The notes under the pieces are model-generated. The model ran no database searches, was not told where the DNA came from, and worked only from the letters and a program-made list of their open reading frames with translations. Positions 7,843-42,152 of a stretch of DNA of 64,000 nt are shown here, one piece after another. The stretch lies in IMG/VR virus record IMGVR_UViG_3300008259_002957; one strand, given 5' to 3'. This DNA comes from a virus. Lineage: Duplodnaviria > Caudoviricetes. Position numbers and translations under genes: made by a program. Numbering within the stretch: position 1 is the first letter of the stretch; each line of letters begins with the position of its first letter.

Positions 7843-9045
7843 GTGATCAATCTAGATCCGTTCAATCAGAAAATCAATGAACTAAAAAGCCAAGGCAAGT
7901 ATCGCGTGTTCAACTCCATAGTTAGAGAACGCGGTAAGTTTCCACGATCAATTTGGTATGGTCCTTATGCTATCAAAGAAATAGTCAATTGGTGTAGCAA
8001 TGACTATCTAGGCATGGGCCAACATCGCGTTGTAACAGACGCAATGCATACTGCACTTGATCAAACAGGTGCAGGATCCGGCGGTACTAGAAACATATCC
8101 GGTACCAGTTCGTATCATATAGCACTAGAACGTGAACTCGCCACACTGCATAGCAAAAGCGGGGCATTGTTGTTTTCTAGTGCCTATGTCGCAAATGAAT
8201 GGAGTCTGGTTGCTCTAAGCCAAATCGTTCCCGACATTGTGTTTTTGAGTGATAGCAAAAATCACGCAAGCCTCATACAAGGTATCCGACACAGTGGTGC
8301 AGCCAAAGTGATTTGGCAACACAACGATATGAGTGACCTTGCTGCTAAACTGGCCCAGGTCGTCGCACAAAACCAAACCCCCTGCATAGTGTTTGAGTCT
8401 GTGTATAGCATGGACGGTGATGTAAGCCCAATAGCAGACATTTGCGATCTCGCCCAGCGTTACGGTGCAATTACCTATATTGATGAAGTCCATGCTGTGG
8501 GATTGTATGGCCAGCATGGAGCAGGGTACCTGGAACACCTAGGTCTTCAAGATCGAGTAGATATTGTCAACGGAACGCTGGGCAAAGCATTTGGTGTATC
8601 AGGTGGATACATAGCAGCCGATTCAGTGGTCATAGACGCTGTTCGACTGTTGGCCAGTGGATTTATTTTCACCACCAGCATATCCCCTGTCATTTGCGCT
8701 GGTGCGTTGGCCAGCGTTAAATGGTTAAAGGTTCACAACGAAATTCGCATCCAACATCAGGCGCAAGCACTGAAGTTTAAAAACAGTTTGCTTGACGTGG
8801 GTGTAGAAGTTTATGATAAAGCCTGTACCCATATCGTGCCCGTAATGATTAAAAATGCTGAACGTTGTAAACAGTTGTCCGATAGGCTATTAGATGAATA
8901 CGGGATCTATGTACAATCTATCGGATACCCAACTGTGGCAGTAGGCGCAGAACGATTGCGTTTTGCTCCTACTCCATTGCATACCGACGGTATGATAGAA
9001 GATTGCGTCCATGCAGTCAGAAAGGTCATTGATGAAATTAAGTAA
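7843..9045 (+). CDS. hemA: 5-aminolevulinate synthase (PLP-dependent, class II aminotransferase family)
   Basis: Motifs [56 protein letters not shown]; likely GTG start at 7843 (ORF open from 7801). Confidence 0.92.
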
Positions 9046-9448
9046 AGCACTGTGGTTTGCCACTGGCATACTCTCCATAGGAGTTGCATTTATAGGAGTT
9101 GTGGTTCCGGGTATTCCGTGGAGCACACCCACTGTGATTGCTGCCTACTGTTTTGCTAAAAGTTCGGATCGTATGCACAATTGGCTGCACAATCATCCAC
9201 GCTTTGGACCATTCCTACGTGGGTGGAGTGAAAAACGCATATTCCCTAGACGACTAAAATACCTCATGCTGGTAACCATGAGCACCAGTTTGTTGATCAC
9301 AGGGCTGCTAACCGGCAACTTGAATGCTGTGCTGTGGACCGGAGGCTTTATGGCCTTTGTAGCCGGCTGGGCTTGGAGATATCCAGATTCAGAAGAGGAA
9401 TACCAACGCCGTGTAGACGCTGGCGAACCCATTGCTTGGTTGCGTTAA
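9032..9448 (+). CDS. YbaN/DUF454 family inner membrane protein
   Basis: [45 protein letters not shown] matches the YbaN pattern. Confidence 0.85.
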
Positions 9449-9975
9449 GCAATCACGTCGTCGAGACCCAACCACTGATACCAACTGTCGTGCTTGACAT
9501 CAAACGGCATCTGCTTGCGCTTGCGAACCAATTCATAGTAGCCCGGCTGATAAGGCTTGTAATGTGGCTTCATACGGCTGAAGTTGGCTTTGCGACTGTT
9601 GCAAGGAGCACAGGCTGTGATGATGTTGTCCCAACGAGTCTTACCACCTTTTGACAGTGGAATCACGTGGTCCATGGTAGCAGTCTTGTTGCTCACACGA
9701 GTGCTGCAATATTGGCAAGTGTAGAGGTCACGTAGATACACGTTGCTCTTGGAGAAGCGTGGTGTTGTGTTTCTACGTAGGTAATCACGTAGCATGATTA
9801 CTGCTGGGACACGGGTTTCCCAACGGGCCGAATGCACAACCCAATCATCGTACCATTCCAATACGTCACACTTGTCGTGGTACATATATAGAATTGCTTC
9901 TTTCCAGCTTACCGCACTTAGCGGCACTAAACTAACTGGCTGGCCGTCTGCGTTAATAAGCAATGTGTCTGACAT
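9445..9975 (-). CDS. HNH endonuclease (McrA-like)
   Basis: RDLYTCQYC...TMDHVIPLSKGG...NIITACAPCNSRK. Confidence 0.9.
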   Translation of the reverse strand: MSDTLLINADGQPVSLVPLSAVSWKEAILYMYHDKCDVLEWYDDWVVHSARWETRVPAVIMLRDYLRRNTTPRFSKSNVYLRDLYTCQYCSTRVSNKTATMDHVIPLSKGGKTRWDNIITACAPCNSRKANFSRMKPHYKPYQPGYYELVRKRKQMPFDVKHDSWYQWLGLDDVIA

Positions 9976-10346: not shown

Positions 10347-10874
10347 CTAAAAATAACGTGCAATGGTTTGACTGGCCACCGATTCTATTGCTGCTGTCCA
10401 CTGCGGTTCACCTGACAGTGAAAACACTATATCAGGATCAAGATTCGCCACCAACCAAGCACCACGGGCAATTTCCATATCCAACTGTCCTGGAGCCCAA
10501 ACCGAAGCCCCCACAGTCAATCTAAAGTACACAGGATCCACACCTCCGGCCAACTTCTCCAACATGATTTCGTCGGAACTGACATTCAACCCTGTGCCGG
10601 TGTGCAGAGTATTGGAACTGGCAAACTCTTCGGAATGCAACATCATCACAGCCGAAGTGTTCACAGGACCACCTGCATAGATAGCATGAGCAGTTACTGA
10701 AGCACCAAATCCACGTTCCTGTGCAAGATGTGCAAATGTGATCTCAGTTGGACGAGTTAGAGCAACACCGGCTGTACCTTTAGAGTTTTCTTCGTAGATG
10801 AATACTGTGCTCTTACTAAAAAATCCTAAGTTTACAGTGGGTCTAGCAATTAAAAATTTACCGACCCTGCTCAT
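10347..10874 (-). CDS. YqgE/AlgH (DUF179) family protein
   Basis: GKFLIARP...GVALTRP...YAGGPV...WAPGQLDMEIARGAW. Confidence 0.88.
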   Translation of the reverse strand: MSRVGKFLIARPTVNLGFFSKSTVFIYEENSKGTAGVALTRPTEITFAHLAQERGFGASVTAHAIYAGGPVNTSAVMMLHSEEFASSNTLHTGTGLNVSSDEIMLEKLAGGVDPVYFRLTVGASVWAPGQLDMEIARGAWLVANLDPDIVFSLSGEPQWTAAIESVASQTIARYF

Positions 10875-20055: not shown

Positions 20056-20132
20056 GGGGGATTAGCTCAATTGGTTAGAGCGTCGGACTCATAATCCGCA
20101 GGTTATCGGTTCAAGTCCGGTATCCCCTACCA
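20056..20132 (+). tRNA. tRNA with CAU anticodon (Ile2 or elongator Met)
   Basis: TAGCTCAATTGGTTAGAGC D arm, CTCATAA loop, GGTTCAAGTCC T arm, CCA end. Confidence 0.92.
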
Positions 20133-20134
20133 TA

Positions 20135-20211
<77 letters not shown>

Positions 20212-21923: not shown

Positions 21924-22223
21924 ATGCGTAAAGTTACTGTCCTCCGCAAGTTCCAAACTGTTAAAGCAATGCGCGACTGTATTGCTGCTTATACTGCAAA
22001 TGTTTTTGCAGACGAACTGCGCGAAGCTGCTGTTGCAATGTATGCAAATGACATTGCGAGAGCTGTTGTTGCGCTTAACGAGTTTATTAGAACGAGTGAC
22101 GCTGTTGCATTGCACAAGCGTATTATGTATTGGGACACAGACGTGCGGGAAGCATTTGTTAGCGTGTTGCACTACATAGAGCAAGAGCAAATGGTGCCTG
22201 CTACGGAGTTTGCTGTGCTGTAA
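21924..22223 (+). CDS. Early hypothetical protein (largely YC-free)
   Basis: Own cassette; no TC/CC between 21954 and 22197. Confidence 0.75.
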   Translation: MRKVTVLRKFQTVKAMRDCIAAYTANVFADELREAAVAMYANDIARAVVALNEFIRTSDAVALHKRIMYWDTDVREAFVSVLHYIEQEQMVPATEFAVL

Positions 22224-22738: not shown

Positions 22739-22893
22739 CCCCGGCCAGGCGGGCTAAGTCATTGAAAACAATGGCAAATTTTTCTCGCACAAAAATGCTA
22801 AGTCGTTGTTTTTAAACGAATCATTTTGCTTGCAAACTGTGCTGCATAGTGTATAACTGTACTTGTAAGCAACACAGCAGAGGGAAACACGCT

Positions 22894-23100
22894 ATGCAAA
22901 ACACAGTTAAACTTGTGGACGTTGAGTATAACTATAAAAGCGAGCTTTGCGCTACGCTTACAAACAGCGTTAAAGCTGTGCGCTGCGAGGACGTGCTGTA
23001 TTTGGACTTTGTAAGCTATGCTGCAATGTGTGCAGTATACGAGGAGTGGTGCGAGCTTGCGGACGCGGGCGAAGAGGGTTATTTTTACGTAGCAGCGTAA
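22894..23100 (+). CDS. YC-free island ORF 1
   Basis: MQNTVKLVDV...; GAGGGA RBS; no Pro. Confidence 0.75.
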   Translation: MQNTVKLVDVEYNYKSELCATLTNSVKAVRCEDVLYLDFVSYAAMCAVYEEWCELADAGEEGYFYVAA

Positions 23101-23198
23101 AAAAACTTGCAGCACACAGCACTTTTTAGTTGACAAGTGCTGTGTGCTGTGCTATACATAACTTGTAAGCAACACAGCACAGCAGAGGGAAACACGCT

Positions 23199-23486
23199 AT
23201 GCAAAACACAGTAGCAAATACAGCAAATACTAATTACGTTTTTGTAATGCTTGATGACGCTACAAACGCAATTGTACTGCGTATTAATAAAACTGTTGAC
23301 GTTTTTTGTAATAGTGCAAACGACATAATTGCTGCATTTAAACAATATAATATTACGGACTGCGACACTATTATGTGCAGCAGTGACGTGGATTTTGCTA
23401 CGGAGTTTGACTATGCGTACGACAGTGCAGTACACGACATGCTTGACGAAGCTTTTGACGCACTAAATTTTAAACAATACGTTTAA
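23199..23486 (+). CDS. YC-free island ORF 2
   Basis: MQNTVANTAN...; no Pro, Gly or Trp. Confidence 0.75.
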   Translation: MQNTVANTANTNYVFVMLDDATNAIVLRINKTVDVFCNSANDIIAAFKQYNITDCDTIMCSSDVDFATEFDYAYDSAVHDMLDEAFDALNFKQYV

Positions 23487-23576
23487 AAAAACAGCAGCAC
23501 ACAGCACTTTTTACTTGACGAGTGCTGTGTGCTGTGCTATAACTTACACACGGGCAACACACGAGAGGGACTGCAC

Positions 23577-23768
23577 ATGACACGCGAAGAACTGTTTGCT
23601 AAAATTGCTGCAATTGCTGCTGACGCATACGACAGCACGGATGCTGACGAAGTGCAAAGCTGGGATGCATACGAAGCAGCGAAACAGATTGTTATTGCAA
23701 TGCAGACGGTTGGCTACGACATAACATATATGTTGGAGCAAATTGAGGAAGACGCTGACGAAGCGTAA
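23577..23768 (+). CDS. YC-free island ORF 3 (acidic)
   Basis: MTREELFAK...; no Pro. Confidence 0.75.
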   Translation: MTREELFAKIAAIAADAYDSTDADEVQSWDAYEAAKQIVIAMQTVGYDITYMLEQIEEDADEA

Positions 23769-23864
23769 CACAAAAAAAACTTGCAGCGCACAGCACTTTT
23801 TACTTGACGAGTGCTGTGTGCTGTGCTATACATAACTTGTAAGCAACGCAAGAGGGAACACGCT

Positions 23865-24152
23865 ATGCACACAGTAATTGCAGAATTTTTGCAGTGTTTT
23901 GCAGCATATATGCAGCATGTAGCCGCGCTAGCGGACGACACGGAACTCGAGCCCGCGGATGCGGAAGACGCTGTTAAAATTGCACAGCAACTTCCTTTGC
24001 TGTATGCAGTTGTTTACAGTCCCCGTGCAGCACAATGCGCTGCGCTTGATGCGCTAGAAGTCGACTGCATTAACATGCTCGACACCAACGTGCGCGATTT
24101 CTTTGCTAACCTGTATACTGTTAACGCACTGTTCCGCAGCAACGAGTTGTAA
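23865..24152 (+). CDS. Island-edge ORF 4
   Basis: MHTVIAEFL...; same promoter family as the island ORFs. Confidence 0.7.
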   Translation: MHTVIAEFLQCFAAYMQHVAALADDTELEPADAEDAVKIAQQLPLLYAVVYSPRAAQCAALDALEVDCINMLDTNVRDFFANLYTVNALFRSNEL

Positions 24153-24239
24153 TAAAAACTTGCAGCACACAGCACTTTTTACTTGACGAGTGCTGTGTGC
24201 TGTGCTATACATATTGCATAGGGCAAACAGGAGGGCAAG

Positions 24240-32134: not shown

Positions 32135-33637
32135 TCAAAACACACGTACTCCGTAGTGTTGTGCAAAATCTCTAGCCTCTCTCCAGGTATTGACCATCGG
32201 CCGACCTTTGATGTTGAGACTTGTGTTCAACAGCATAGGGCAACCGGTCTCTGCATACCACTGTTCCAGTAAACGTCTAAAACCCGGGTTGTCTGCTTTG
32301 CCCACTGTTTGCACTCTGCTGGTACCGTCGTGGTGTACAATTGCTGGAAATTCTTCCGGGTATCTGCAATGTGCAGTGTATTGCATGTAAGGGCCCACGG
32401 GTCCGTCGAAATATTCTTCTGCGTGTTCTTCAAGTATAGCAGGTGCAAATGGTCTAAACTGTTGACGCTGCTTGATGTCATTGACCCTGGACTTGATATC
32501 TGCGCCACGTGGGTCAGCCAGTAGACTGCGATTGCCCAAGGCTCTAGGTCCAAACTCAGCAGCACCATTGGCCACACCTGCAATGCCCACAGTTTTGAGT
32601 TCTTGGATCAATTCTTTTACAGGGTAGGGTCGGTTGATTGTGAACCCTAGATATGGACCCTGCCACTCAATTGGCTGTTGATACTTGGCCAACACTGCAC
32701 CCACACTGGACCCAGAGTCGCCTGGATTGGGCATGATCCATACCCTGTTCCAATCTTTATAGATAGTGCTGTTAGCAGCACAGTTTAGGGCACAGCCGCC
32801 CATTAAAACTAGATTACCCGAAGTAGATTTCCACCTAGCCCAGTTACTGATTATTTTAAGAAAGTACTGATAAACTGCCTGGGTAGCGGCAGCAATGTCA
32901 AAGAGGTCTTGTTCTGTGTTGAGATCCAGTCGCCAACCTCTGCACCCCCGATGAAGATTGTTTTTAAAAACAATCCTAGGACTGTTATCCGGATCAATAT
33001 GTTGAACAAAGTCTTGCATGATGTCGTTGAACAGTCTGTGGGGGTTGCCGTATGCTGCCATACCCATAAGGATATATTCATCCTCGTTGGCTTTGAGTCC
33101 TATACGGTCAGTCATAGCACTGTACCACAGACCAAGACTGTGTGGATAACGTTGTGTATAAATTCGTTTTAGATCCGTGCCCTTGCCTTCCCAAATGCTG
33201 AGAGTTTCGAATTCACCAATACTGTCTAGAACAACGACAGTGGCAGAATCAAAACCACTTGTAAAATATCCAGCACTAGCATGGCTACAATGATGGTCAA
33301 CAAATGATACAGGAGCGTGGATGCCATAGTCAAGCAGATAATTGCGAATATTGTTTTCTTTAGCCTGCCACCCTTGCCCTGCCAGAAGTTGTCGAATTGT
33401 TTTTTTGTATGGTTTTTCATACCAGACAACTTCGTCAGGTTTGCCAAAATTATTGACGGCATATTCAATCAATCCATCTCGAAATATCGAATGACTACAA
33501 TGCAGATTAGGGTCGTTTTTTATACCACTAAATCTTTCACTGTGACTTGCAAATTCTAATTTTAATTTGTTTGCATCTTTATCAAACACTGCTAGTGCAG
33601 CATCGTGACTGTTAGCACTAATTCCCCAAATTTTCAT
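32135..33637 (-). CDS. Carbamoyltransferase (NodU/CmcH family)
   Basis: HDAALAV, HHCSHA, DSIGE, MGMAAYG, GGCALNCAAN, EFGPRALGNRS, FRPFAP, LLNTSLN. Confidence 0.95.
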   Translation of the reverse strand: MKIWGISANSHDAALAVFDKDANKLKLEFASHSERFSGIKNDPNLHCSHSIFRDGLIEYAVNNFGKPDEVVWYEKPYKKTIRQLLAGQGWQAKENNIRNYLLDYGIHAPVSFVDHHCSHASAGYFTSGFDSATVVVLDSIGEFETLSIWEGKGTDLKRIYTQRYPHSLGLWYSAMTDRIGLKANEDEYILMGMAAYGNPHRLFNDIMQDFVQHIDPDNSPRIVFKNNLHRGCRGWRLDLNTEQDLFDIAAATQAVYQYFLKIISNWARWKSTSGNLVLMGGCALNCAANSTIYKDWNRVWIMPNPGDSGSSVGAVLAKYQQPIEWQGPYLGFTINRPYPVKELIQELKTVGIAGVANGAAEFGPRALGNRSLLADPRGADIKSRVNDIKQRQQFRPFAPAILEEHAEEYFDGPVGPYMQYTAHCRYPEEFPAIVHHDGTSRVQTVGKADNPGFRRLLEQWYAETGCPMLLNTSLNIKGRPMVNTWREARDFAQHYGVRVF

Positions 33638-41528: not shown

Positions 41529-42152
41529 TTAACCTATAGTGGTTACGTTTAGTTTTTTCTTTAGGTAGTTTAAGAAGAGACCATACAACGGTAGGAACAC
41601 TAAGAATCCAATTGCAATTTTAATACCCACTTGTGAGTGTGCAACTGAAACCCAGTTTTCAGACATAAATGCATCTGCTGAACCATGGAAGGCTACTGAG
41701 AAGAATGTGTATGTATCAATGATGGTTGCTGCAACAGTTGATATTGCAGGAGCAGCCCACCAATTGTCAGTCCAACGTTCTCTAATGTGTTGGAACACAT
41801 AAACGTCAAGTAGTGTACCAACTGCATAAGCAGTAGCACTGGCAAAGCCGATACGTAGTGCAACACTTTCAGGAGCACCACTTGCTAACACAACTGCGAT
41901 AGAAGCGATAATCGCAAATGGGTAAGCAAACGCAATAGTTGCTCTTGCTGTTTCTTTTCCTAGTAGTCTAACAGTCAAGTCTGTTGCAAGAACTACTAGA
42001 GGGAATGTAAGTGCCGACCAACTAATAACAAAGCCTGCTAGTGTAAATGTGCTACTAACAATTGCGTTCGAAATTGTAATAATAGCAACATGTAATAGTA
42101 CTAATTTAATTAACATTGACCTATCAATGTTTTGTAATAATCCAAACATCAT
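41529..42152 (-). CDS. Queuosine-precursor (preQ0/preQ1) transporter, YhhQ/VUT family
   Basis: ISN, FPLVVLATDLTVRLLG, RIGFASATAYAVGTLLDVYVF, WWAAP, IDTYTFFSVAF. Confidence 0.88.
   Translation of the reverse strand: MMFGLLQNIDRSMLIKLVLLHVAIITISNAIVSSTFTLAGFVISWSALTFPLVVLATDLTVRLLGKETARATIAFAYPFAIIASIAVVLASGAPESVALRIGFASATAYAVGTLLDVYVFQHIRERWTDNWWAAPAISTVAATIIDTYTFFSVAFHGSADAFMSENWVSVAHSQVGIKIAIGFLVFLPLYGLFLNYLKKKLNVTTIG

What the first reader, a model, noticed from the sequence alone, without database searches (positions are those of the whole stretch)
22822..23923. 1.1-kb island with no TC or CC dinucleotide on the coding strand (no GA or GG on the template strand)
Seen: I checked every line, and between the TC at 22821-22822 and the CC at 23923-23924 every C follows a purine. 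This holds in three complete ORFs, the start of a fourth, their promoters, and across codon junctions, so it is a nucleotide-level effect and not codon bias. The proteins therefore have no Pro, and Ser is encoded only by AGY. GA is abundant on the same strand, so the depletion is strand-specific. A second YC-free run spans 21954-22197, and the edges look eroded. Neighbouring early genes prefer ATC/TTC/ACC/GCC. Inference, three alternatives: (a) G in a GR context is hypermodified and these genes must be read by host RNA polymerase from an unmodified template; the window encodes a preQ0/preQ1 transporter, and preQ0 at GA/GGC has been reported for coliphage CAjan (recalled, verify); (b) the mRNA or displaced strand evades a YC-specific nuclease, deaminase or ADP-ribosyltransferase; (c) transcription-associated C-to-T erosion. 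Under (a) or (b) these small acidic ORFs are prime candidates for first-expressed anti-defence or take-over factors.
Basis: partly seen in the sequence, partly recalled or inferred. Interest (0 to 1): 0.9.

Follow-up and report, generated by a model that had tools for sequence, protein, structure and literature searches.

The report
Phage early genes purged of pyrimidine-C
A few early genes of this freshwater jumbo phage and its relatives have been recoded by natural selection so that their sense strand has no TC or CC, which suggests that something unidentified attacks or reads exactly those two-letter sites.

Summary
The + strand has no TC or CC from 22822 to 23922. About 102 would be expected at the neighbours' density, and the next longest runs are 244 and 114 nt.

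The window is part of a freshwater jumbo myovirus distantly related to Pseudomonas phage PA5oct. The island is four sigma70-type one-gene cassettes.

The same purge occurs in about 15 related metagenomic contigs, always on the sense strand whichever way the gene points. About 23 kb of island DNA holds only 28 YC. One small protein family (ORF B) is YC-free in 11 loci down to 34% identity, although its synonymous sites are saturated.

Selection causes this, not C-to-T erosion: forbidden codons are replaced mainly by A-ending codons. Window and nearest relative differ by 57 substitutions, none creating YC (P about 1e-6).

The 7-deazaguanine idea is not supported. Relatives with islands have no TGT/DpdA, and one complete genome also lacks QueC.

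Rho, the one known reader of YC in RNA, is possible. But T4 and T7 early genes show no purge.

My best reading is evasion of an unidentified YC-directed, single-hit activity on the mRNA or the displaced DNA strand. Some relatives' cassettes also lack GA/GG.

Other first-stage notes of this scan report similar islands in other genomes.

The parts
22822..23922 (+). YC-free island: no TC or CC on the + (sense) strand
   Evidence: 0 YC against about 102 expected. All 214 C follow a purine.
22755..22810 (+). Two copies of the 'opening' element (TAAGTCATTG at 22755, TAAGTCGTTG at 22799) just upstream of the island. The same element opens the whole early array at 13.87-14.47 kb.
   Evidence: (families D7, D8, D11). 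It is also found upstream of islands in L078, L080, L082 and L083.
22830..22857 (+). First island promoter: -35 TTGCAA (22830-22835), 16-nt spacer, -10 TATAAC (22852-22857). From 22822 to about 22877 the DNA is free of GR as well as YC.
   Evidence: Sequence read. GA-less -35 boxes are enriched among purged cassettes: 17 of 49 against about 20 of 345 (not phylogenetically independent).
22894..23100 (+). ORF A, 68 aa, acidic, no Pro, YC = 0
   Evidence: No Pfam or PHROG match.
23099..23176 (+). 78-nt cassette junction repeat, copy 1: A-run, then a roughly 15-bp inverted repeat whose loop holds the -35 box (TTGACA 23130-23135), then -10 TATACA (23153-23158). Further copies lie at 23484-23561, 23773-23850 and 24152-24229.
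   Evidence: (family D4, 81-100% identity) and the sequence.
23199..23486 (+). ORF B, 95 aa. It is the hallmark island gene family and is YC-free in all 11 loci found.
   Evidence: dN/dS is 0.13-0.55 with dS up to above 2. The AlphaFold model (pLDDT 74) is a small alpha/beta fold with no significant PDB match.
23577..23768 (+). ORF C, 63 aa, very acidic and helical-looking, YC = 0. Homologues in G001 and L004 are also YC = 0.
23865..24152 (+). ORF D, 95 aa. Only its first 58 nt, shared with the cassette 5' repeat, are YC-free; the rest has 17 YC. The island's right edge (23923) lies inside it.
   Evidence: (D5, D6). The nearest relative G001 has a different gene here, so ORF D is probably a recent replacement.
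21924..22223 (+). Semi-purged ORF (99 aa) holding the second YC-free run, 21954-22197. Its G001 orthologue has 9 YC at other positions.

Best explanation
The island is a run of early, host-RNA-polymerase (sigma70-type) one-gene cassettes. Long-continued natural selection has recoded their sense strand so that it contains no 5'-pyrimidine-C-3' dinucleotide.

I read this as transcript-level 'stealth'. The mRNA, or the identical non-template DNA strand displaced during transcription, offers no site to an activity that acts on single YC sites. That activity could be a nuclease, an ADP-ribosyltransferase, a deaminase or similar, encoded either by the hosts of this phage clade or by the phages themselves for shut-off. 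The proteins from these cassettes could then still be made while that activity is present.

Shown: the purge is real, sense-strand-specific, bounded roughly by transcription units, near-perfect, clade-wide and maintained by selection.

Inferred: that the selective agent acts on RNA or the displaced strand, and that it acts site by site. Its identity is unknown.
For: 1. Sense-strand rule whatever the orientation. Minus-strand genes in relatives are purged on the minus strand (L014 4316-4711; G001 211403-211705).

2. The purge includes leaders, cassette junctions and codon junctions. In L014 it stops about 40 nt after the stop codon, just past a hairpin.

3. Selection, not mutation bias. GCC, ACC and GTC are replaced mainly by GCA, ACA and GTA, while GAC, GGC and AGC rise. 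Window versus G001 shows 57 substitutions; 21% of random substitutions would create YC and none did (P about 1e-6). L079 versus L083 shows 152 substitutions (P about 2e-16).

4. Near-perfection points to a cost per site. There are 28 YC in about 23 kb of islands from 12 lineages, several of them inside conserved motifs. Gene-level YC density is bimodal.

5. The purge belongs to the cassette's context, not to the protein. Orthologues are purged in some lineages (L015: 1 YC; L004: 3) and normal in others (11-16 YC), and purged and normal cassettes sit side by side.

6. A second, separate sense-strand rule exists. Some cassettes lack GA/GG only (L007 4140-4409; L005 1313-1564), and some lack both classes (L079 9788-10306, G001 211192-210830, G002 369269-369628). 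This is easier to explain by two RNA-level readers than by one duplex-DNA rule.

7. Precedent. CmdT blocks phage translation by ADP-ribosylating GA dinucleotides in single-stranded mRNA (PMC11618068). DarT2 modifies TNTC in single-stranded DNA (PMC11543638).

8. ORF B is a real gene under purifying selection.
Against: No YC-specific RNA- or ssDNA-targeting enzyme is known, and I found none in the relatives; only a few families were searched.

A sporadic host defence would not obviously give such uniform selection across a diverged clade.

GA is also partly avoided at codon junctions of YC-purged genes (0.14 against 0.29). GA-less -35 boxes are enriched at island-opening promoters. Both could instead point to a duplex-DNA rule.

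In G001, L085 and L086 the purge starts 100-200 nt upstream of the first island promoter, inside the preceding gene.

There are no expression data. Metatranscriptome contigs were uninformative.
Confidence: 0.45

Rival explanations
1. Rho evasion. Each of the six clefts of Rho's primary binding site binds one 5'-YC-3' dinucleotide of nascent RNA. A YC-free transcript could not load Rho and so could not be prematurely terminated, even when it is poorly translated.
For: This is the only known, universal factor whose RNA specificity is exactly YC (PMC5314796; also PMC6144790 and PMC12360218). Removing single YCs measurably lowers termination in vitro. It explains the sense-strand rule, the inclusion of untranslated junctions, the retention of C after purines, and the clade-wide constancy, since every host has Rho. 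The antisense RNA stays YC-rich, which is a good Rho target.
Against: Rho loading is cooperative over 60-90 nt, so a near-zero YC count over 1-3 kb exceeds what would be needed.

The cassettes are 45-176 codons long, and most have their own promoter.

The early genes of T7 (YC 0.091 per nt against 0.10 in later classes; longest run 98 nt) and of T4 (YC/C 0.29-0.68; longest run 97 nt) are transcribed by a Rho-exposed host polymerase yet show no purge.

It does not explain the GA/GG-free cassettes or the partial GA avoidance.
Confidence: 0.17
2. Template-strand rule. A guanine followed by a purine is modified or damaged in the DNA, either by the phage's own hypermodification or by a DNA-targeting enzyme. 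A modified G on the template strand blocks host RNA polymerase, so genes that must be read from such DNA carry no GR on the template strand.
For: 7-deazaguanine insertion at GA/GGC is real in CAjan, and at GA alone in phage iggy. The window has a YhhQ-type transporter. First-stage notes report folE, queE, a QueC-like gene and a large radical-SAM island elsewhere in this genome (unchecked). Some islands in relatives are free of GR on both strands, GA is partly avoided on the sense strand, and island-opening promoters often use GA-less -35 boxes (TTGCAA, TTTACA). A single duplex rule would be parsimonious.
Against: No TGT/DpdA match in five island-bearing relatives, even at E<=10. The complete G002 genome has islands but no QueC.

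About 65% of purged cassettes, and nearly all of the roughly 345 normal early cassettes, keep consensus TTGACA with its GA. That is hard to reconcile with a modification that disturbs polymerase.

Cassettes purged of GR only on the sense (non-template) strand exist.

7-deaza modifications do not alter Watson-Crick pairing (general knowledge).
Confidence: 0.2
3. Neutral mutational erosion: transcription-associated or APOBEC-like C-to-U deamination at YC on the exposed strand, without selection.
For: The TC/CC context matches APOBEC3-type deaminases (general knowledge). The islands have lower GC than their neighbours (0.43 against 0.51).
Against: In four-fold codon families the lost C-ending codons are replaced by A-ending codons, not T-ending ones (GCT 0.30 to 0.29, ACT 0.30 to 0.25). 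The GC-to-AT shift is strand-symmetric. ORF D sits behind an island-type promoter with a normal YC density. The proteins are under purifying selection.
Confidence: 0.02
4. Foreign origin: the island was imported from a donor with this composition and merely retains it.
For: The island is preceded by a second copy of the array-opening element. Cassette content differs between close relatives.
Against: Within-clade orthologues differ in purge state. Substitutions that accumulated after divergence still avoid YC. Synonymous sites are saturated, yet the purge persists. No donor with this composition was found.
Confidence: 0.03

Closest known systems
[quoted passage not shown]
   Same: A dinucleotide-specific, single-hit attack on phage mRNA. 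It would select for transcripts that lack the dinucleotide. GA/GG-free cassettes occur in relatives, and GA is partly avoided in the YC-free genes.
   Different: The specificity is GA, not YC. No CmdT-like enzyme for YC is known. CmdT is triggered late, by capsid protein, whereas these are early genes.
Rho utilisation sites: YC dinucleotides bound by Rho's primary binding site (PMC5314796)
   Same: Exactly the same dinucleotide class, read in RNA in a strand-specific way.
   Different: Here YC is absent rather than enriched. Rho binding is cooperative. The early genes of T4 and T7 are not purged.
dPreQ0 (7-deazaguanine) DNA modification at GA/GGC in coliphage CAjan, and at GA in Pseudomonas phage iggy (PMC7544227, PMC10484667)
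   Same: The sequence context, G followed by a purine, is the complement of YC. A YhhQ transporter is present in both.
   Different: No DpdA/TGT in relatives that have islands. The purge is on one strand only, and promoters keep GA. No motif-free islands are reported for CAjan in the passages I read.
Motif avoidance as immune evasion. Examples: restriction-site avoidance in phages, CpG suppression in vertebrate RNA viruses against ZAP, ACA-less mRNAs and MazF (all from general knowledge, not checked here)
   Same: Sequence is recoded to remove the recognition unit of a hostile factor while the protein is kept.
   Different: Here a whole class of two dinucleotides is removed completely, on one strand only, in a subset of genes. 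The cost is the loss of Pro and of four Ser codons.
Host-takeover arrays of small early genes, each with a strong host-type promoter (T4 immediate-early genes, SPO1 host-takeover module, T7 class I; general knowledge)
   Same: Same architecture: many small ORFs of unknown function, each behind a near-consensus sigma70 promoter.
   Different: Of the arrays named above, only a T4 early block and the T7 early region were checked; they show no dinucleotide purge.

Membership tests
Phage 7-deazaguanine (DpdA) DNA modification system | A DpdA (tRNA-guanine transglycosylase family, PF01702) gene | tested here: not met
   No match in G001 (93% complete), G002 (100%), G003, G004 or G005, even at E<=10. 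The controls matched in 14 of 14 genomes. The window's own full genome is not held.
Phage 7-deazaguanine (DpdA) DNA modification system | preQ0 synthesis genes (FolE, QueD, QueE, QueC) | tested here: inconclusive
   For QueC (PF06508) there are only weak hits in G001 (22.9 bits) and none in the complete G002, which nevertheless has islands. First-stage notes report folE, queE and a QueC-like gene elsewhere in this genome (unchecked). YhhQ/Vut_1 is confirmed in the window.
Phage 7-deazaguanine (DpdA) DNA modification system | Modified G in virion DNA at GA/GGC | not testable with these tools
   This needs LC-MS or long-read kinetic data on virion DNA.
Rho-resistant (rut-free) transcript | The RNA lacks the YC dinucleotides needed by Rho's primary binding site | tested here: met
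   There are 0 YC in 1101 nt. Rho's specificity is taken from PMC5314796.
Rho-resistant (rut-free) transcript | Transcription is insensitive to Rho, and a YC-restored version is sensitive | not testable with these tools
   This needs termination assays. Indirect comparators (T4 and T7 early genes) show no purge.
APOBEC-like / transcription-associated C-to-T hypermutation footprint | YC replaced by YT, with excess T-ending codons on the affected strand | tested here: not met
   A-ending codons replace the forbidden codons and T-ending shares are unchanged. The composition shift is strand-symmetric.
T4-type host-DNA/RNA nucleases (DenB endonuclease IV; RegB) | A homologue encoded by the phage clade | tested here: not met
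   The T4 DenB protein gave no match at E<=1. PF10715 (RegB) gave no match. Neither search had a positive control, so the absence is weak evidence.
Mobile, repeat-bounded cassette array | Repeats at cassette junctions | tested here: met
   Four copies of a 78-nt junction repeat at 81-100% identity. This describes the architecture but does not explain the purge.

The most novel reading that the evidence does not exclude
The YC-free cassettes, and the rarer GA/GG-free ones, are the footprint of undescribed dinucleotide-specific activities that inactivate mRNA or single-stranded DNA. These could be a host immune enzyme family or a phage shut-off enzyme. The recoded genes would then be the phage's protected counter-measures or take-over factors. 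If so, the sequence rule could be used as bait to find the enzyme and as a genome-scan signature for similar conflicts.
Probability: 0.4. Interest if true: 0.92.

Novelty: new variant of a known kind. Interest (0 to 1): 0.85.

Why it matters
Phage genes that give up proline and four serine codons, over kilobases and across a diverged clade, imply a strong and specific selective agent that reads a two-base unit on one strand.

If the agent is Rho, this would be the first natural example I know of where transcripts are made invisible to Rho by recoding, and it would give a design rule for Rho-proof genes.

If it is an unknown nuclease, ADP-ribosyltransferase or deaminase, the islands point to a new layer of bacterium-phage conflict and mark the phage genes that matter most in it.

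Either way the pattern is a cheap, alignment-free signature that can be searched for in any genome.

Tried and rejected
DNA similarity to GenBank phages: no match in near or distant mode. No whole genome is held for the window.

Island proteins: no Pfam or PHROG family. ESM Atlas gave no usable lead. The ORF B model (pLDDT 74) has no significant PDB match, only weak RNase-H-like topology hits.

'The purge keeps the mRNA unstructured': rejected. Purged genes fold slightly more strongly than GC-matched normal genes (residual -0.03 kcal per nt, P = 0.001).

'Islands purged on both strands are a by-product of a YC-free but highly structured RNA': not supported. They fold little or no better than dinucleotide shuffles (z = -2.7 and -0.45).

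'Purged cassettes all have GA-free promoters': rejected as a general rule. 31-32 of 49 have TTGACA or TTGACG. GA-less boxes are enriched but mostly belong to one orthologous promoter.

Phage-encoded Rho-like RNA-binding domain: none found. RegB: none. T4 DenB homologue: none.

Metatranscriptomes: two river RNA runs hold only scattered low-depth contigs of the early region and none in the island, so they are uninformative.

PA5oct, the closest cultured relative: only short YC-free runs (244 nt at most) in the 40 kb around its ATPase homologue.

Literature searches for a described strand-specific dinucleotide purge in phage early genes found nothing.

Full report
1. THE OBSERVATION

A recount confirms it exactly. 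On the + strand the last pyrimidine-C (YC) before the island is the TC at 22821-22822 and the next is the CC at 23923-23924.

The island has 214 cytosines. 108 follow A, 105 follow G, and none follows T or C. At the YC density of the neighbouring + strand genes (0.093 per nt) about 102 would be expected, giving Poisson P about 5e-45.

The same strand keeps GA and GG, but at a reduced density: 0.084 per nt against 0.136.

2. WHAT THE REGION IS

The window belongs to a jumbo myovirus. Its large terminase is 54% identical to that of Pseudomonas phage PA5oct. No DNA-level match exists in GenBank phages.

The sequence is found in lake and freshwater metagenomes from about 15 studies.

From about 13.5 to 28 kb, the + strand carries an array of small genes. 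Each sits behind a near-consensus sigma70 promoter (TTGACA, 17 nt, TATAAC or TATACA, with TG upstream) and a conserved leader.

The island is four such cassettes:
- ORF A, 22894-23100
- ORF B, 23199-23486
- ORF C, 23577-23768
- the first 58 nt of ORF D, 23865-24152

They are separated by four copies of a 78-nt junction repeat. Each repeat holds an A-run and a roughly 15-bp inverted repeat that encloses the -35 box.

The island is preceded by two copies of a TAAGTCATTG element that otherwise marks the start of the whole array. Its first promoter has a GA-less -35 box, TTGCAA.

The purge covers 356 nt of non-coding DNA, where about 17 YC would be expected. It also covers all codon junctions. It is therefore a nucleotide-level rule. 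The absence of Pro and of TCN serine codons follows from that rule.

3. IT IS A CLADE-WIDE, SENSE-STRAND PROPERTY

I searched IMG/VR with the neighbouring ATPase (37 loci) and with an ORF B family alignment (11 loci).

About 15 related contigs have YC-free runs of 400-1700 nt. Examples: L003 1212-2933, L014 1980-3475, L086 3919-5087, L085 4562-5527, and G001 212665-213627.

In two near-complete relatives that I fetched whole (G001, 330 kb; G002, 372 kb), all long runs lie in the early module.

The purged strand is always the sense strand, including for genes on the opposite strand (L014 4316-4711; G001 211403-211705).

Pooled, about 23 kb of island DNA from 12 lineages holds 28 YC. Several of these lie in conserved motifs such as GGCCCCGCTG.

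Across 850 ORFs, gene-level YC density is bimodal. 22 ORFs are at exactly zero, there is a shoulder at 0.01-0.03, and the main peak is at 0.07-0.08.

4. SELECTION, NOT EROSION

In purged genes the forbidden C-ending codons are replaced mainly by A-ending codons:
- GCA rises from 0.40 to 0.56
- ACA rises from 0.39 to 0.63
- GTA rises from 0.30 to 0.43
- GCT and ACT do not rise
- GAC, GGC and AGC increase

This is the opposite of a C-to-T deamination footprint.

The window and its nearest relative G001 differ by 57 substitutions across ORF B and ORF C. 21% of random substitutions would create a YC, yet none did (P about 1e-6). For L079 against L083 there are 152 substitutions (P about 2e-16).

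ORF B homologues down to 34% identity have 0-1 YC. Their dN/dS is 0.13-0.55 with saturated dS, so this is a real protein whose synonymous sites have turned over while staying YC-free.

One orthologous family is purged in two lineages (1 and 3 YC) and normal in four (11-16 YC). In L004, purged and normal cassettes alternate. The purge therefore belongs to a cassette's expression context, not to the protein.

ORF D sits behind an island-type promoter with normal YC content. G001 has a different gene at that position, so ORF D looks like a recent arrival.

5. A SECOND RULE

Some cassettes in relatives lack GA and GG as well as TC and CC. Examples are L079 9788-10306, G001 211192-210830 and G002 369269-369628. 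Their predicted products have no Asp, Glu, Gly, Pro or Trp, and they have no Shine-Dalgarno sequence.

A few cassettes lack GA/GG but keep YC (L007 4140-4409; L005 1313-1564).

In YC-purged genes, GA is about two-fold depleted at codon junctions (0.14 against 0.29), whereas GG is not.

These regions fold no better than shuffled controls. Purged mRNAs are not less structured than normal ones.

6. WEIGHING MECHANISMS

(a) 7-deazaguanine at GR. The CAjan precedent is real and the window encodes YhhQ. But island-bearing relatives have no TGT/DpdA even at E<=10. The complete G002 genome lacks QueC. Most purged cassettes, and nearly all normal ones, keep a consensus TTGACA box containing GA. A generic template-strand lesion model remains possible. 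It is favoured by the doubly purged islands and by the enrichment of GA-less -35 boxes at island-opening promoters (17 of 49 against about 20 of 345, though mostly from one orthologous promoter). It is disfavoured by cassettes purged of GR on the non-template strand only.

(b) Rho. Its primary binding site binds exactly YC dinucleotides in RNA, which makes it the only known reader that fits. However, loading is cooperative over 60-90 nt, the genes are short and mostly have their own promoters, and the early genes of T7 and T4 show no purge.

(c) A YC-directed single-hit activity on mRNA or on the displaced strand. This best explains the near-perfection, the per-cassette mosaic, the sense-strand rule and the independent GR rule. 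It has precedents in CmdT (GA in mRNA) and DarT2 (TNTC in ssDNA). No such enzyme is known, and I found no Rho-like, RegB or DenB homologue in the relatives.

(d) Neutral erosion and foreign origin are contradicted.

7. VERDICT

Alternative (b) survives, (a) is not supported and (c) is refuted.

I put about 0.45 on evasion of an unidentified YC-directed activity on RNA or the displaced strand. I put 0.2 on a template-strand G(R) modification or lesion, 0.17 on Rho evasion, and the rest on other or unknown causes.

The functions of the island proteins are unknown.

I found no description of such a purge in the literature I searched.

Other first-stage notes of this scan describe similar islands in other genomes. 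I could not check whether those genomes are among the relatives analysed here.

Noticed in passing
L079:9788-10306; G001 211192-210830 (= L076 about 8060-8600); G002 369269-369628 (L033:15779-16138): Cassettes in relatives are free of GA, GG, TC and CC at once. Their ORFs (119-172 aa) would encode basic, low-complexity proteins with no Asp, Glu, Gly, Pro or Trp, and they have no Shine-Dalgarno sequence. Coding status is uncertain in G001, where three overlapping frames are open.
   Followed up: partly
L007:4140-4409; L005:931-1630: Sense-strand genes that are almost free of GA/GG but keep normal or half-normal YC. This is the reverse purge and is rarer and shorter.
   Followed up: partly
window 13874, 13924, 13975, 14084, 14463, 22755, 22799, 26324, 26761: The motif TAAGT(C/G)NTTG recurs at the start of the early array and just before the island. 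It also lies upstream of islands in L078, L080, L082 and L083. It may be a regulator binding site or an insulator.
   Followed up: partly
L085:5525-5535; L086:5085-5095; window 11698, 12982, 13307, 13367, 20589, 24381: The GC-rich motif GGCCCCGCTG(T/C)TA is one of the few places where CC survives inside otherwise YC-free islands of relatives. It is therefore probably functional.
   Followed up: no
window 20063-20200: Contigs from many unrelated organisms in four runs pile up here (depth up to 283), with loose ends that look like tRNA flanks. A tRNA gene probably sits inside the early array.
   Followed up: no
window 23865-23922: ORF D looks chimeric. Its first 58 nt belong to the repeated cassette 5' end (ATGCA...) and are YC-free, while the rest has normal composition. 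G001 has an unrelated gene at this position.
   Followed up: partly
window 41529-42152 (-); 32135-33637 (-); 10347-10874 (-); 9445-9975 (-): A YhhQ/Vut_1 transporter (PF02592, 85 bits), a NodU/CmcH-type carbamoyltransferase, an AlgH-like DUF179 protein and an HNH endonuclease are encoded in the window.
   Followed up: partly
L087:35830-36073 (PA5oct gp099 region): The closest cultured relative has one 244-nt YC-free stretch (141 nt of it also GR-free) covering a 70-aa gene, with the same GCA/TGC-rich look. It may be a weak counterpart of the islands.
   Followed up: no
window 23199-23486 (ORF B) and the A2 alignment: The ORF B family has invariant D56, S61, S62, D65, F66, E69, D75 and H79 (core IMCSSxxDFAxE) and a beta3-alpha-beta-alpha-alpha model. 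There are only weak RNase-H-like topology hits and no convincing catalytic motif.
   Followed up: partly
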